Positions 51,427-55,719 of a DNA stretch of 64,000 nucleotides are shown one piece after another. Where the stretch lies: the NCBI GenBank assembly GCA_963778565.1, contig CAVZUZ010000012.1:1400827-1464826 (forward strand), read 5' to 3'. Below the pieces are notes generated by a model that was not told the DNA's origin, ran no database searches, and was given only the letters and a program-made list of their open reading frames with translations. Position 1 is the stretch's first letter. Each line of letters begins with the position of its first letter. Origin of the DNA: Thermoanaerobaculaceae bacterium. GTDB taxonomy: Bacteria > Acidobacteriota > Thermoanaerobaculia > Multivoradales > UBA5704. The position numbers and the translations under genes were made by a program.

Positions 51427-51492
51427 GGGAGGTTGGGCCGACGGATCCGCTCCTGAAATCCTCTCCAGGTCGGACCGTTGTCCGCGCCGTCG

Positions 51493-51728
51493 GGCCCCTC
51501 ACCTCCCCGGCCCTCCTCTCCCGCCTCACACCCACCCCTCCGGGAGAGGAGGGAGCTGTAAGAACAAATCCTCCAGAACCTCTCCCCTCTTTCCCGGCGG
51601 GCGGGAGTGCGATGGGAGAGAGGAAAAACCTGAGAGGAGAGTCTTTTCTTGCTGGCTTTTTCAGTCTCCCTCCTCTCCCGGAGGGGTGGGTGTGAGGCGG
51701 GAGAGGAGGGCCGGGGAGGTGAGGGGCC
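51493..51728. repeat. MITE/REP-like element with about 60-bp terminal inverted repeats (copy 1)
   Basis: left arm ggcccctcacctccccggccctcctctcccgcctcacacccacccctccgggagaggagggag; right arm is its reverse complement (tctccctcctctcccggaggggtgggtgtgaggcgggagaggagggccggggaggtgaggggcc). Confidence 0.75.
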
Positions 51729-51861
51729 CGAAGCGGCGTAGAGGCTCTCTCATCGACAACTTTCGACGTCAGGTTCAGCTCGCGCAGGAGGTACTGTGGA
51801 GTGAGGGAGTAGGTGACCCCCGTGCTAGCATCCGCCCGGTGAGCCCGGCCCTCCCTCCCGC

Positions 51862-54228
51862 ATGGAGACAGGCATGAAGGTCGCCGTCGTCGGCGGCGGG
51901 CCGGCCGGCCTGTACTTCGCCCTGCTGCTCAAGAAGGCGGACCCGGCGCATCAGGTCACCGTGCTGGAGCGCAACCCTCCGGGCGCCACGTTCGGCTGGG
52001 GCGTCGTCTTCTCCGACCAGACCCTCGGAAACTTCCAGCTCGCCGACCCCGAGACGTTCCGCGAGATCTGCGACAACTTCGCGCGCTGGGACGACGTCGA
52101 CGTCCATTTCAAGGGGCGGACCATCACCTCCGGCGGCCACGGCTTTGCCGGCATCGCCCGCGTCAAGCTGCTGGAGATCCTGCAGCGCCGGGCCGCCGCG
52201 CTCGGCGTCGAGCTGCGCTTCGGCGTCGAGGTCCGCGACGACTCGGACCTCCCAGGCCTGGGGCTCGGCGACGCGGACCTGATCGTCGCCGCCGACGGCG
52301 TCAACAGCGCCGTCCGGCGGCGCCACGCCGAGGTGTTCCAGCCCGACCTCGTCCTCGGCAAGGCGCGCTTCGTCTGGCTGGGCACGACGCGGCTCTTCGA
52401 CGCCTTCACCTTCGTCTTCGTCGAGAACGAGCACGGCATCTTCCAGGCCCACGCCTACCGCTTCAGCGACCGGCTCTCGGCCTTCATCGTCGAGTGCGAC
52501 GAAGCCTCCTGGCGCAACGCCGGCTTCGACCGTCTGGACATGGACGCCACCGTGGTCGCGTGCGAGGAGATGTTCGGTCTCTGGCTCGCCGGCCACCGGC
52601 TGCTCGCCAACGTGCCGCCCCACCAGCGCACGGCGCCGTGGCTGCAGTTCGGCCGCGTCCACTGCGCGCGCTGGTGGCACGACAACCTCGTGCTGATCGG
52701 CGACGCGGCCCACACCGCGCACTTCTCGATCGGCTCCGGCACCAAGCTGGCCATGGAAGACGCGATCGCGCTCGCCCGCATCGTCGGTGGGCAGCCGGAC
52801 CTCGGCGCGGCGCTCCCCGCCTACGAGGAGGAGCGGCGCATCGAGGCGCTGCGGCTGCAGAACGCGGCCCGCAACTCCATGGAGTGGTTCGAGAACGTCC
52901 GCCGCTACGCGCGCCTGGATCCCGAGCAGTTCGCCTACAGCCTGCTCACCCGCAGCCAGCGGGTGAGCCACGAGAACCTCCGCCTGCGCGACCGAGGCTA
53001 CCTCGAAGGCGTCGAGCGCTGGTTCGCCAGCCGGGCCAGCCGCGCGGCCCACGCGGCCCACGCGGCCCACGCGGATCGCCAGGCGCTGCAGCCGGCGTCT
53101 CCGCCGCCGATCTTCACGCCCTTCACCCTGCGCGGCATGACGCTGGAGAACCGCGTCGTCGTCTCGCCCATGGACATGTACAGCGCCGAGGACGGCACGC
53201 CCAATGATTTTCATCTGGTCCACCTGGGCGCCCGGGCGCTGGGCGGCGCCGGGCTCGTCGTCACCGAGATGACCTGCGTCTCGCCCGAGGGCCGCATCAC
53301 CTATCGCTGCACCGGCCTGTACAAGCCCGAGCACGTCGAGGCGTGGCGCCGCATCACCCGTTTCGTCCACCGCTGGAGCCGCGCCAGGATCTGCCTGCAG
53401 CTCGGGCATTCCGGCGCCAAGGGCGCCACCCGCCTGATGTGGGAGGGCATGGACGAGCCGCTCGAAGAGGGAGCCTGGCCGGTGATGGCGGCCTCGGCCG
53501 TGCCGTACAAGCCCAACCTGCAGGTGCCCCGCGAGATGACGCGCGCCGACATGGACCGGGTGCGCGACGAATTCGTGCGCGCCGCCCGCCTGGCCGTCGA
53601 GGCCGAGTTCGACATGCTGGAGCTGCACTGCGCCCACGGCTACCTGCTCTCCGGCTTCATCACACCGCTGTCCAACCTGCGGACGGACGAGTACGGCGGC
53701 CCGCTCGCCAACCGCCTGCGCTATCCGCTCGAAGTCTTCCGCGCCATGCGCGAGGTCTGGCCGCCCGAGAGGCCGATGTCCGTGCGCATCTCGGCCACCG
53801 ACTGGATCGAAGGCGGCATCGACGGCGCCGACGCGGTCGAGATCGCGCGCGCCTTCCACCTCGCCGGCGCGGACATCATCCACGTCTCGGCCGGGCAGAC
53901 GTCGGCCGACGCCCGTCCCGTCTACGGCCGCATGTTCCAGACGCCGTTCTCCGACCGCATCCGCAACGAGACCGGCATCCCGACCATCGCCGTCGGCAAC
54001 ATCACCGAGCCCGACCAGGTCAACTCGATCATCGCCGCCGGCCGCGCCGACCTCTGCGCCCTGGCGCGGCCCCACCTCGCCGATCCGAACTGGACGCTGC
54101 ACGCCGCGGCCCAGCTCGGCTACGCCGCGCAGCCCTGGCCGGTGCAGTACCTCTCCGGCAAGGAGCAGCTCGAGCGCAACCTCGCGCGCCAGCGGGCGGC
54201 GGAGCTTCTGGGGACGAGCACGATTTGA
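51862..54228 (+). CDS. bifunctional aroyl-CoA monooxygenase/reductase (FAD monooxygenase fused to Old-Yellow-Enzyme domain; 2-aminobenzoyl-CoA monooxygenase/reductase or salicylyl-CoA 5-hydroxylase type)
   Basis: 788 aa; N-terminal [17 protein letters not shown] and [21 protein letters not shown] flavin monooxygenase motifs; C-terminal OYE-like TIM barrel ([32 protein letters not shown]). Confidence 0.75.
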
Positions 54229-54276
54229 TGCCCTCACCCGTGGTCCCTCGCCGATGTCTCGCCCCTCCGGGGCCGG

Positions 54277-54550
54277 CCCTCACTCCCCCGGCCCCTCTCT
54301 CCCACCTCACACCCGCCCGCCGGGAGAGAGGGGAGACTGGAAAAGACGACATATTTCTGCCTTTACAGTCTCCCTCCTCTCCCGGCCGGGCGGGCGTGAG
54401 GTGGGAGAGGAGGGCCGGGGAGGTGAGGGGCCCCGGCGGCGTCGCCCGCGGTTCGATGTACGACGCCGACCGAATCGGCTGTTTTTTCTCCCTCCTCTCC
54501 CGGTGTGGGGGGAGGGAGGGGCGGGAGAGGAGGGCCGGGGAGGTGAGGGC
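54277..54550. repeat. MITE/REP-like element copy 2 (with an extra partial right arm)
   Basis: gccctcactcccccggcccctctctcccacctcacacccgcccgccgggagagaggggag ... tctccctcctctcccggccgggcgggcgtgaggtgggagaggagggccggggaggtgagggg, then ttctccctcctctcccggtgtgg...gggagaggagggccggggaggtgagggc. Confidence 0.75.
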
Positions 54551-54586
54551 TTCGAAGGGCAGATCCTCTCCTGAAGGACCAACCCC

Positions 54587-55420
54587 ATGAACAATCGCAT
54601 CCCCCTAGAAGACCTCCAACCCCGCCACTTCGGCTGGGCCGTCGAGGACCGCGTCGCCACGGTCACGCTCAACCGGCCGGAGCGCAAGAACCCGCTCACC
54701 TTCGACTCCTACCGCGAGCTGGCCGATACCTTCCGCCGGCTGCGCCACGTCGAGGAGGTCAAGGCCGTGGTCCTGACCGGCGCCGGCGAGAGCTTCTGCT
54801 CGGGCGGGGACGTGCACGAGATCATCGGTCCCCTGGTGAAGATGCGCGAAGAGAAGCGGATGGACCGGCTGCTGGAGTTCACCCGCATGACGGGCGAGCT
54901 GGTGAAGACGATGCGCGCCTGCCCGCAGCCGATCGTCGCGGCCGTCGACGGCATCTGCGCCGGGGCGGGCGCGATCCTCGCCATGGCCTCGGACCTCCGC
55001 CTGGGCACGCCGCGCAGCCGCGTCGCCTTCCTCTTCACCCGCGTCGGGCTCTCCGGCGCCGACATGGGGGCCTGCGCCATCCTGCCGCGCCTCATCGGCC
55101 ACGGGCGCGCCTCGGAGCTGCTCTACACCGGCCGCTTCATGGAGGCCGAGGAGGCCGAGCGCTGGGGCTTCTACAGCCGCCTCGTGCCGCCCGAGAGCCT
55201 CCTCGCCGAAGCCCGCGGCCTCGCCCGCTCGCTCGCCCACGGTCCCACCTTCGCCCACGCCATGACCAAGCGCCAGCTCCACCAGGAGTGGGACATGGGG
55301 ATCGACCAGGCCATCGAGGCCGAGGCGCAGGCGCAGGCCCTCTGCATGCAGACCGAGGACTTCGCCCGCGCCTTCCGCGCCTTCGCGGCGAAGGAGAAGC
55401 CGGTGTTCGAGGGGGATTGA
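54587..55420 (+). CDS. enoyl-CoA hydratase/isomerase (crotonase) family protein
   Basis: 277 aa; [16 protein letters not shown] and [22 protein letters not shown] crotonase oxyanion-hole motifs. Confidence 0.8.
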
Positions 55421-55456
55421 AAGGGTGGAGACAAAATCAAAGCGGTGTGCCCTCCG

Positions 55457-55672
55457 AAGCCCTCACTCCCCTGGCCCCTCTCTCCCGGGGGGAGAGAGGG
55501 GAAACGGAAGAAGAATCTGCCGGATGCTTTTCGTAGGGGCGGGGCTTGTCCCCGCCCGCGACGGTTCAGGGCGGGAACAAGCCCCGCCCCTACGAAGAAA
55601 TTCGTCGGGTCGATTTCTTACTGTTCTCCCTCCTCTCCCTCTGGGAGAGGAGGGCCGGGGAGGTGAGGGCTT
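55457..55672. repeat. MITE/REP-like element copy 3 containing an inner palindrome cgtaggggcggggcttgtccccgccc...gggcgggaacaagccccgcccctacg
   Basis: outer arms gccctcactcccctggcccctctctccc / gggagaggagggccggggaggtgagggc; inner hairpin identical to terminator hairpin at 13497. Confidence 0.7.
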
Positions 55673-55719
55673 CGGAGGGCATACCGATCCGCTGCATGCT
55701 AAAGGGACCTGGGGCCTCC

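What the first reader, a model, noticed from the sequence alone, without database searches (positions are those of the whole stretch)
51490..55700. Inverted-repeat MITE/REP-like element family occupying the intergenic spacers of an aromatic acyl-CoA operon
Four copies of a roughly 200-270-bp element have about 60-bp terminal inverted repeats built from ccctcacctccccggccctcctctccc / gggagaggagggccggggaggtgaggg. They sit at 241..313 (partial), 51493..51728, 54277..54550 and 55457..55672, each exactly between a stop codon and the next start. Three of them separate the monooxygenase/reductase, crotonase and acyl-CoA dehydrogenase genes. Copy 3 additionally embeds the GGGGCGGGGCTTGTCCCCGCCC hairpin that serves as the terminator stem at 13497. 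Elements like this can act as transcriptional attenuators or RNA-stability determinants inside operons and mark the genome as one with an active small non-autonomous element.
Basis: seen in the sequence. Interest (0 to 1): 0.6.

Follow-up and report, generated by a model that had tools for sequence, protein, structure and literature searches.

The report
BoxC-like triplex-motif repeat doublets
The inverted repeats between these genes are real. They belong to a known but poorly understood class of bacterial intergenic repeats (BoxC, or "intrastrand triplex motifs") whose three matching blocks let one DNA strand fold into a triple helix, and a longer-stemmed version has been inserted several times into a normally tightly packed operon of an acidobacterial genome.

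Summary
The window contains eight copies of a 45-65-nt unit at four intergenic sites, where chance predicts none. Six of them form three inverted pairs.

Each unit has three blocks: a pyrimidine block, its purine complement, and a third block that is the mirror image of the purine block (G opposite G, A opposite A or T). This is the class II purine-motif intrastrand triplex architecture of E. coli BoxC/PIT/TMECO elements (PMC4666352). Here the stems are 12-13 nt instead of 9.

All three blocks covary across variants. In sequence chosen without reference to the motif, every polypurine hairpin carries the mirror block.

A genome scan found the family in Thermoanaerobaculia, other Acidobacteriota, Chloroflexota, Cyanobacteria, Gemmatimonadota and Myxococcota. 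Pairs always run C-rich arm then G-rich arm, and the two arms are usually different variants.

Orthologous operons in relatives have 0-12-nt junctions, so these copies are insertions. I found no target-site duplication, no GTAG head, no neighbouring mobility gene and no terminator signature. The MITE, REP and attenuator labels are therefore not supported.

Verdict: a new variant of a known repeat class. How it spreads remains unknown.

The parts
243..306 (-). Single triplex-motif unit, variant 2, 13-nt stems. On the - strand: pyrimidine block CCCCCTCTCTCCC, a 23-nt G-rich loop, purine block GGGAGAGAGGGGG, TT, mirror block GGGGGAGTGAGGG. It fills the 76-nt gap between two convergent genes.
   Evidence: DNA fold leaves the third block unpaired
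51483..51738 (.). Pair D1 including its outer inverted repeat. Both arms are variant 1: left arm 51496-51555 (unit on - strand), right arm 51666-51725 (unit on + strand). A degenerate variant-2 unit sits inside at 51581-51623, which suggests two fused or recombined pairs. D1 lies upstream of the operon's promoter-like motif.
   Evidence: (I1, I6)
54277..54429 (.). Pair D2, long-loop type, with different arms. Left arm is variant 2 (54277-54336, unit on - strand). Right arm is variant 1 (54370-54429, unit on + strand). The AT-rich centre is itself an inverted repeat. D2 is 87% identical over 158 nt to an element in a Thermoanaerobaculia MAG (L010 3594-3750).
   Evidence: (I5)
54488..54549 (+). 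Right half of a second pair (variant 1, 21-nt G-rich loop). The T-rich centre remnant GCTGTTTTTT precedes it. The left half is missing.
   Evidence: its loop resembles those of L069/L075/L044 units
55443..55686 (.). Pair D3, short-loop type, including the outer inverted repeat TGCCCTCCGAAG / CTTCGGAGGGCA. Left arm is variant 2 (55460-55503, loop of 3-4 nt). Right arm is variant 1 (55626-55669, loop TCT).
   Evidence: (I3)
55530..55596 (.). A separate repeat family nested in the centre of D3: an inverted pair of GTAG-headed GC hairpins (TTCGTAGGGGCGGGGCTTGTCCCCGCCC ... GGGCGGGAACAAGCCCCGCCCCTACGAA). It looks like a REP or REPIN element.
   Evidence: (I12)
13493..13522 (+). Single copy of the same GTAG-headed hairpin followed by TTTT, 24 nt after the stop of gene 11814-13469. 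It is terminator-like. It is not part of the triplex-motif family.
54231..54240 (+). Remnant CCCTCACCC two nucleotides after the monooxygenase stop codon. L117, L136 and L137 also have GCCCTCAC directly after this stop codon.

Best explanation
These are dispersed, non-coding DNA repeats of the BoxC / PIT / 'TM' class (intrastrand triplex motifs). This is a long-stemmed variant found mainly in Thermoanaerobaculia (Acidobacteriota).

**Anatomy (shown).** Read on its G-rich strand, each unit has five parts:
1. a 12-13-nt pyrimidine block;
2. a loop of 3-8 or 17-24 nt;
3. the complementary purine block;
4. a 2-4-nt turn, usually CCG;
5. a third purine block that mirrors the second (G*G, A*A or T*A).

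A single DNA strand can therefore fold into a hairpin and lay the third block into its major groove as a reverse-Hoogsteen strand. The usual propagating element is a ~120-160-bp pair of units. It always runs C-rich arm then G-rich arm, normally with two different stem variants, around an AT-rich centre.

**History (shown).** In this genome such pairs were inserted into the junctions of an operon that is compact in relatives. Later they were themselves hit by other palindromic repeats.

**Mechanism (inferred).** The three-block fold in single-stranded DNA is what is selected, most plausibly as the substrate of the still unknown copying or insertion mechanism. That mechanism leaves no target duplication, as single-strand hairpin-dependent systems do. 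The elements act as non-autonomous selfish DNA. Their effect on the operon is probably neutral or mildly polar. In the polycistronic mRNA they form very stable hairpins but do not look like terminators.
For: **Three-block anatomy**
- All 8 units read as described.
- A generic class II triplex finder returns exactly these 8 units in 64 kb. It returns none in 20 shuffles.

**Covariation**
- The genome scan left two positions free in the purine block and two in the mirror block. They pair as GG/GG 46, AG/GA 36, GA/AG 30 and GA/TG 7 of 131 hits. Only 12 break the rule.
- The pyrimidine block was not part of the search pattern. It is present in 100 of 125 hits and carries the matching change.
- Further mirror-consistent variants occur in orthologous loci: AGGAGAGGGG/GGGGTGAGGT, GGGAGAAGAGGG/GGGTGATGAGGG and GGGAGAGAGAGGG/GGGAGAGTGAGGG.
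- In 452 kb chosen without reference to the motif, 13 of 13 perfect 10-bp purine/pyrimidine hairpins have a 10/10 mirror block on exactly one side. The other side scores 3-6 of 10.

**Match to the known class**
- PMC4666352 reports the same block order, the same GGGAGAG...GTGAGGG core and the CCG turn.
- It also reports intergenic location, inverted pairs with unlike arms, and no linked mobility genes. It gives CD and NMR proof of a triplex for the 9-nt version.

**Pair geometry**
- All 19 strict pairs run C-rich arm then G-rich arm, and none runs the other way. Sixteen of the 19 combine variant 1 with variant 2.

**Insertion**
- The ECH-to-ACAD junction is 18 nt or less in 47 of 60 related loci.
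- The MO-to-ECH junction is 9-12 nt or overlapping in 6 of the 12 closest loci.
- Junctions that carry the motif are confined to the closest relatives and hold different variants.

**Conservation and folding**
- Pair D2 is 87% identical over 158 nt to an element in another species.
- Watson-Crick folding leaves the third block unpaired.
Against: - Triplex formation was not and cannot be tested here. The published in vivo DMS footprint for the E. coli motif did not show a stable triplex (PMC4666352).
- The strict TMECO pattern is not met, so relatedness to BoxC rests on architecture and a shared core.
- Copies are not independent events. The covariation counts reflect roughly 7-8 variant lineages, not 131 events.
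- Loci L001-L112 were selected by a pattern that contains two of the three blocks.
- 'Insertion' is inferred from presence or absence. Exact boundaries and empty-site sequences could not be aligned at 85-90% protein identity.
- The rest of the source genome was not retrievable, so its copy number and any mobilising gene are unknown.
Confidence: 0.75

Rival explanations
1. A classical MITE. It would be a deletion derivative of an insertion sequence, with the ~60-bp arms acting as terminal inverted repeats bound by a DDE transposase supplied in trans. Insertion would create target-site duplications.
For: Size of 120-260 bp, terminal inverted repeats, intergenic location, many copies, and presence/absence at orthologous sites.
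Against: - Across 49 pairs there is no target-site duplication: longest flank direct repeat 4.51 nt against 4.70 nt in permuted flanks.
- The two arms are usually different variants. Each arm matches its own mirror block rather than its partner arm.
- No transposase was found among the 39 window ORFs scanned (9 against NCBIfam, 30 against Pfam).
- No mobility family recurs among the nearest ORFs of 126 sites.
- No pair of arms flanks a transposase-sized insert. The only distant pair, in L025, spans sequence that matches a chromosomal gene of the window.
Confidence: 0.08
2. A REP/REPIN-like element mobilised by a single-strand-specific HUH Y1 (RAYT-like) or comparable enzyme. The enzyme would recognise the folded hairpin plus its adjacent conserved tail. 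The triplex-compatible tail would then be a protein or guide recognition sequence rather than a third strand.
For: - Inverted pairs of hairpin units, no target-site duplication and intergenic location are all REPIN traits.
- True GTAG-headed REP-like pairs co-exist in these genomes. They are even nested in the centres of the pairs here.
Against: - The units have no GTAG or GTGG head next to the hairpin foot.
- The tail covaries with the stem as a mirror image. A fixed protein-recognition sequence would not do this.
- No Y1 transposase gene is in the window or recurs next to 126 sites. The rest of the genome was not examined.
Confidence: 0.15
3. Host-selected RNA elements inside the operon transcript. 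Hairpins would attenuate transcription or protect upstream mRNA segments from 3' exonucleases, as described for E. coli REP/BIME.
For: As RNA the spacers fold extremely well: -249 kcal/mol with z = -10.3, and -217.5 kcal/mol with z = -13.5. Two of the sites lie within a co-directional gene series.
Against: - There is no U-tract terminator signature: 1 site found against 1.8 expected.
- The same junctions are 0-12 nt in close relatives that have the same operon, so the elements are dispensable.
- Different genomes fill the same junction with unrelated palindromes.
- The conserved T in GTGAGGG suits a purine-motif DNA triplex. Its complement A breaks the pyrimidine motif, which is the only one reported to form in RNA (PMC4666352).
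- E. coli PIT elements showed no promoter or terminator activity (same paper).
Confidence: 0.12
4. G-quadruplex / i-motif elements. The four or more G-tracts of the purine blocks, and the G-rich long loops, would form quadruplexes that act as the functional structure.
For: The G-rich strand has at least four G3 tracts, such as GGGAGAGGAGGGCCGGGGAGGTGAGGG. The long loops add three or four more.
Against: - A quadruplex needs no complementary pyrimidine block.
- It also needs no mirror relation between loop bases, yet both are strictly kept.
- NMR on the E. coli motif showed a triplex, not a quadruplex (PMC4666352).
Confidence: 0.07

Closest known systems
BoxC / PIT (potential intrastrand triplex) / TMECO elements of E. 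coli and other Proteobacteria (Bachellier et al. 1990s; Hoyne & Maher 2000, 2002; Holder et al. 2015, PMC4666352)
   Same: - Block order is pyrimidine, purine, mirror-purine (class II purine motif).
- The core is shared: CCCTC..CTCTCCC / GGGAGAG / GTGAGGG.
- The second turn is CCG ('type B') or T-rich ('type A').
- Location is strictly intergenic.
- Inverted pairs are built from two unlike units.
- There are no linked mobility genes and no terminator signature.
- The elements sit at sites that vary between relatives.
   Different: - Stems are 12-13 triplets instead of 9. The published pattern CCCTCNCCC N3-6 GGGNGAGGG N3 GGGNGAGGG has no match in the window.
- A second architecture has a 17-24-nt G-rich first loop. 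This is outside the 1-6-nt loops searched by the ITxF database.
- The host range is Acidobacteriota, Chloroflexota, Gemmatimonadota and Myxococcota. The paper does not mention Acidobacteria or Chloroflexi.
- The pairs have a conserved AT-rich palindromic centre and outer inverted repeats.
REP / BIME / REPIN elements mobilised by RAYT (TnpA-REP) transposases
   Same: Short hairpin units often arranged as inverted pairs. They are intergenic, lack target-site duplications, reach hundreds of copies per genome, and form stable RNA hairpins when transcribed.
   Different: REPs are defined by a GTAG-type head and a plain imperfect palindrome. These units have no such head. They carry a third mirror block that covaries with the stem. 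No RAYT gene was seen.
MITEs (e.g. Correia/NEMIS, RUP, Nezha)
   Same: Size, terminal inverted repeats, intergenic spread and non-autonomy.
   Different: No target-site duplication, no cognate insertion sequence, arms that differ from each other, and homopurine/homopyrimidine arms with mirror symmetry.
H-DNA-forming mirror repeats (mostly eukaryotic)
   Same: Homopurine mirror symmetry and reverse-Hoogsteen G*G.C, A*A.T and T*A.T triplets. They are also linked with local instability.
   Different: H-DNA forms from one duplex mirror repeat under supercoiling. Here all three strands lie in series on one strand, so folding needs single-stranded DNA.

Membership tests
TMECO / BoxC in the strict sense (PMC4666352) | Matches 5'-CCCTCNCCC N3-6 GGGNGAGGG N3 GGGNGAGGG-3' (9-nt stems) | tested here: not met
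   No match in the window on either strand. The units have 12-13-nt stems that contain the 9-nt core plus an extra GGA/AGG/TCC-type extension in each block.
Class II purine-motif intrastrand triplex motif (general TM class, PMC4666352 Fig. 1C as described in its text) | Order 5'-pyrimidine block, purine block, reverse-Hoogsteen block-3', with the third block antiparallel to the purine block and forming G*G.C, A*A.T or T*A.T triplets, at most one mismatch | tested here: met
   All 8 units are found by a generic finder and none in 20 shuffles. The mirror rule holds in 119 of 131 scan hits at unconstrained positions. It also holds in 13 of 13 hairpins found independently of the motif.
   Met by the two short-loop units of pair D3 (first loop 3-4 nt). 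Not met by the six long-loop units (first loop 18-23 nt).
TM / BoxC class | Exclusively intergenic, with no association with transposase, phage or plasmid genes | tested here: met
   All four window sites lie between annotated genes. No mobility gene was found among the 39 window ORFs scanned. No mobility family recurs next to 126 sites. Only 16 stretches hit in 2.9 million viral contigs, and there was no plasmid BLAST hit (low-complexity filter on).
TM / BoxC class | Inverted pairs combine two unlike unit types | tested here: met
   16 of 19 strict pairs combine variant 1 with variant 2. The paper reports 5 of 5 type A + type B pairs in MG1655.
TM / BoxC class | The isolated G-rich strand forms a stable triplex (CD, NMR) | not testable with these tools
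   ViennaRNA models Watson-Crick pairs only. It leaves the third block unpaired.
MITE | Target-site duplication flanking the terminal inverted repeats | tested here: not met
   Across 49 pairs, the mean longest direct repeat in 28-nt flanks is 4.51 nt against 4.70 nt for permuted flanks. There is also no conserved flanking di- or trinucleotide.
MITE | Termini shared with an autonomous insertion sequence that encodes a transposase | tested here: inconclusive
   None was seen in the window or in 112 8-kb loci. Whole genomes were not searched.
REP / REPIN | Conserved GTAG (GT[AG]G) head next to an imperfect palindrome | tested here: not met
   The unit ends read CCCTCAC / GTGAGGG with no GTAG. 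A separate nested family does carry GTAG (55530-55596, 13493-13518).
REP / REPIN | A cognate RAYT gene in the genome, itself flanked by the repeats | not tested
   Only 64 kb of the source genome is available. No Y1 transposase was found among the ORFs scanned.
Intrinsic terminator / attenuator | GC-rich hairpin immediately followed by a U-tract on the transcribed strand | tested here: not met
   One terminator-like site in 51300-55800 against 1.8 +/- 1.3 in shuffles. It is a small hairpin at 54465-54479, not one of the units.
Any curated RNA family (Rfam 15) | Match at gathering threshold | tested here: not met
   No matches in the whole window.

The most novel reading that the evidence does not exclude
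The triplex-motif pair would be a distinct, very widespread kind of mobile DNA. Its propagation would depend on a single-stranded hairpin-plus-third-strand (triplex) fold, not on a sequence-specific terminal repeat.

The three-way covariation seen here, across about eight stem variants and several phyla, would then be the first comparative-genomic proof that a DNA triple helix is under natural selection in bacteria. The abundant, diverse copies in Thermoanaerobaculia would make it possible to find the unknown enzyme or process that copies them. That question has been open since BoxC was described in the 1990s.
Probability: 0.25. Interest if true: 0.75.

Novelty: new variant of a known kind. 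Interest (0 to 1): 0.45.

Why it matters
BoxC/PIT/TM elements have been known for about 30 years, yet they have no established function or mode of spread.

This locus and its relatives add three things:
- **A richer system.** The version here has longer stems, about eight stem variants, two loop architectures, and occurs in several phyla.
- **A stronger argument for the fold.** The pyrimidine, purine and mirror blocks change together. Polymerase copying cannot produce that pattern, so it points to selection on the triplex-type fold itself.
- **Direct filled-versus-empty comparisons.** These come from the junctions of a conserved, normally gap-free operon.

For annotation, the practical lesson is that such spacers should be labelled as triplex-motif repeats. 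They should not be labelled MITEs, REPs or terminators. The spurious proline/glycine-rich ORFs that overlap them should be ignored.

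Tried and rejected
- **Rfam.** The gathering-threshold scan of the whole window found nothing.
- **Source contig.** Exact-protein look-ups failed for the 788-aa protein, its 784-aa database twin P0001 and the 277-aa hydratase. The cluster look-up gave no name. The organism is therefore inferred only from the nearest named homologues, which are Thermoanaerobaculia.
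- **BLAST.** A unit against E. coli genomes and a pair against plasmids gave no match. This is weak evidence because the low-complexity filter is on.
- **Candidate autonomous element.** L025 has arms 3.4 kb apart. The interior matches an ordinary chromosomal gene of the window at about 70% identity, so I dropped it.
- **Target-site duplication test.** My first script was faulty. I replaced it with a longest-common-substring test, which was negative.
- **Second third strand.** I asked whether the long G-rich first loop is a second third strand on the 5' side. By hand comparison only about 8 of 12 positions fit the mirror rule, so I dropped the idea.
- **Intergenic statistic.** A GC3-based coding-fraction estimate was too crude (56% coding) and I did not use it.
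- **Neighbour-gene screen.** The first alignment exceeded the residue limit. I repeated it with 126 ORFs.
- **Coding feature.** Rejected, because relatives have 0-12-nt junctions at the same places.

Full report
**1. The observation**

The sequence described is present.
- The 27-mer GGGAGAGGAGGGCCGGGGAGGTGAGGG occurs five times exactly, where shuffles give none.
- The degenerate form GGGAGAGNNGGGN{2,5}GGGNNGTGAGGG picks up eight units at four intergenic sites.
- Three pairs of long inverted arms exist: 73 nt at 96%, 60 nt at 83% and 48 nt at 85% complementarity.

Several details need correcting.
- '54277-54550' is a complete pair plus half of another.
- 241-313 is a lone unit between two convergent gene ends.
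- The 51493-51728 copy lies upstream of a conserved TGCTAGCAT...CCGGTGAG motif, not inside the operon. That motif precedes the monooxygenase gene in all seven loci compared.

**2. What the unit is**

Read on its G-rich strand, each unit is CTCCCTCCTCTCCC, a loop, GGGAGAGGAGGG, CCG, then GGGAGGTGAGGG. The third block does not complement anything nearby. It is the mirror image of the purine block: G opposite G, A opposite A, and one A opposite T.

A second variant in the window changes all three blocks together: CCCCTCTCTCCC / GGGAGAGAGGGG / GGGGAGTGAGGG.

A full-text search for the core words led to Holder et al. 2015 (PMC4666352). That paper describes exactly this architecture as a class II purine-motif intrastrand triplex. 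It was first named BoxC in E. coli, then PIT, then TMECO. The paper reports:
- the pattern CCCTCNCCC N3-6 GGGNGAGGG N3 GGGNGAGGG, with a second loop of TTA or CCG;
- 3610 copies in 262 proteobacterial genomes;
- strictly intergenic location;
- five inverted pairs in MG1655, each combining the two loop types;
- a stable triplex by CD and NMR in vitro, but no stable triplex in an in vivo DMS footprint;
- no promoter or terminator activity in earlier work;
- no linked mobility genes;
- association with locally variable regions.

BoxC is also listed among E. coli stem-loop repeat families in PMC2267715.

**3. Tests of the three-block rule**

- A generic finder (stem of 9 or more, at most one mismatch, first loop up to 30 nt, second loop up to 6 nt) returns exactly the eight units in the window. 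It returns none in 20 shuffles.
The pattern fixed only part of the purine and mirror blocks.
  - At the four free positions, the 131 hits pair as GG/GG 46, AG/GA 36, GA/AG 30 and GA/TG 7. Only 12 break the rule.
  - The pyrimidine block was not in the pattern. It is present upstream in 100 of 125 hits and carries the matching change.
- In 452 kb of loci chosen by gene homology rather than by motif, all 13 perfect 10-bp purine/pyrimidine hairpins carry a 10/10 mirror block on exactly one side. The other side scores 3-6.
- More mirror-consistent variants turned up in orthologous loci.

Copying by a polymerase can make complements but not mirror images. The relation must therefore be maintained by selection on a structure. 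Dyad-symmetric protein sites would not give it either.

The conserved T in GTGAGGG fits T*A.T in the purine motif. Its complement A would break a pyrimidine-motif triplex on the C-rich strand, and that is the only motif reported to form in RNA. I therefore infer that the selected fold is in DNA, not in RNA.

**4. The composite element**

- In all 19 strict pairs the C-rich arm comes first and the G-rich arm second. None has the opposite order.
- 16 of the 19 pairs combine variant 1 with variant 2, in either order. The pair, not the single unit, is therefore what propagates, and it has a polarity.
- The first loop is bimodal: 3-8 nt or 17-24 nt. In Acidobacteriota the long form is G-rich.
- Short-loop pairs tend to carry the outer repeat TGCCCTCCGAAG. 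Long-loop pairs tend to carry CGCCGCCGGGC-like ends.
- Pair D2 is 87% identical over 158 nt, centre included, to an element in a different Thermoanaerobaculia MAG.

**5. Distribution**

By record title, the hits are:

| Group | Stretches |
|---|---|
| Thermoanaerobaculia | about 42 |
| Other Acidobacteriota | 15 |
| Chloroflexota | about 30 |
| Cyanobacteria | 7 |
| Gemmatimonadota, including Longimicrobium | 8 |
| Myxococcota | 2 |
| Candidatus Ribeiella danica (phylum not checked) | 2 |
| Six other groups (Melainabacteria, Peribacteria, Streptomyces, Armatimonadetes, Burkholderiaceae, Bipolaricaulota) | 1 each |

- The scan was truncated, so these proportions are only indicative. MAG contamination could explain the single records.
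- Only 16 stretches were hit in 2.9 million viral contigs.
- The window's own genome was not among the hits. Its monooxygenase is 100% identical to a database protein from a 1.5-Mb NCBI/ENA contig. The nearest named homologues are Thermoanaerobaculia.

**6. Insertion**

Six orthologous operons were fetched through homologous proteins. Eighty more came from metagenomes.
- The hydratase-to-dehydrogenase junction is 18 nt or less in 47 of 60 measurable loci. It is 0-9 nt in L114, L116, L117 and L118.
- The monooxygenase-to-hydratase junction is 9-12 nt or overlapping in six of the twelve closest loci.
- Expanded junctions that hold triplex motifs occur only among the closest relatives. They hold different variants in different genomes. 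For example, L113 and L115 share a 10-nt-stem pair where the window has the 12-nt short-loop pair.
- L114 fills one junction with an unrelated GTAG-headed palindrome.
- L117 has a pair in a third junction, dehydrogenase to ligase.

The compact operon is therefore the ancestral state, and its junctions have been colonised repeatedly.

Flanks of 49 pairs show no target-site duplication. No mobility gene was found among the 39 window ORFs scanned. None recurs among the nearest ORFs of 126 sites.

**7. Function**

- As RNA the two operon spacers fold at -249 and -217.5 kcal/mol, with z of -10.3 and -13.5. The polycistronic mRNA, if made, therefore carries very stable hairpins.
- There is no excess of terminator-like or promoter-like sites.
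- Close relatives with the same genes do without the elements, and the published E. coli tests were negative.
- My best reading is selfish, structure-defined DNA. Its triplex-capable fold in single-stranded DNA is needed for its own propagation. Its effect on the operon is neutral or mildly polar, and it marks sites prone to further insertions.
- The propagation step is inference. It works most like REPIN-type single-strand systems, but the elements fail the REP membership test (no GTAG head, and a covarying tail).

**8. Novelty and verdict**

The kind is known. Four things are new here:
- the 12-13-triplet stems;
- the host range beyond Proteobacteria and Cyanobacteria;
- the explicit three-block covariation, together with filled and empty junctions in a conserved operon.

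I class this as a new variant of a known kind, of moderate interest.

Noticed in passing
window 56905-63816: A ~6.9-kb block of lower GC (52-65% against ~70%) separates the acyl-CoA dehydrogenase gene from the AMP-ligase gene, which starts near 63817. In relatives these two genes overlap by about 8 bp. The block carries two unassigned ORFs, a KGGVGR-type AAA ATPase, a GAF protein, a PAS histidine kinase and a receiver-like ORF. It looks like a foreign island inserted into the operon.
   Followed up: partly
window 13493-13522 and 55530-55596; L117 ~8400-8455; L114 ~8405-8540: A second repeat family of GTAG-headed GC hairpins, REP/REPIN-like. It occurs once as a terminator-like single copy after gene 11814-13469. 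It occurs once as an inverted pair nested exactly in the centre of triplex-motif pair D3. Analogous GTAG palindromes are nested in the centre of a pair in L117 and fill a junction in L114.
   Followed up: partly
window 13539-13637; L095 7364-7560: A 38-nt-arm palindrome rich in AAGGAC (92% complementary) lies right after the hairpin at 13497. A similar AAGGAC-rich filler lies inside a triplex-motif pair in L095. This is possibly a third small repeat family.
   Followed up: no
window 51833-51856; L113-L118 just upstream of position 6000: The motif TGCTAGCAT(N5-7)CCGGTGAG is conserved ~30-45 nt upstream of the monooxygenase start in all seven loci, although the upstream genes differ. It is a candidate extended -10 promoter or operator for the operon.
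   Followed up: no
window 53040-53074: Tandem 9-bp repeats (GCCCACGCG, about 4 copies) inside the monooxygenase/reductase gene encode an (Ala-His-Ala)n linker between the FAD-monooxygenase and Old-Yellow-Enzyme-like domains.
   Followed up: no
window 54231-54240; L117 8329; L136 2320; L137 268: The word GCCCTCAC sits 0-2 nt after the monooxygenase stop codon in four related genomes, even though the rest of the spacer differs. Either an old shared insertion has since been overwritten, or the element prefers to land against the stop codon.
   Followed up: partly
L117 9417-12400: In this relative (a 5.9-Mb contig) the dehydrogenase and ligase genes are called only as fragments, although the DNA still aligns. 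The cause is either frameshift errors in the assembly or real pseudogenes next to two triplex-motif pairs.
   Followed up: no
window 51581-51623: A degenerate variant-2 unit that has lost its third block sits inside pair D1, whose two outer arms are both variant 1. This suggests that D1 arose by fusion of, or recombination between, two ordinary variant-1/variant-2 pairs (I6, 32).
   Followed up: no
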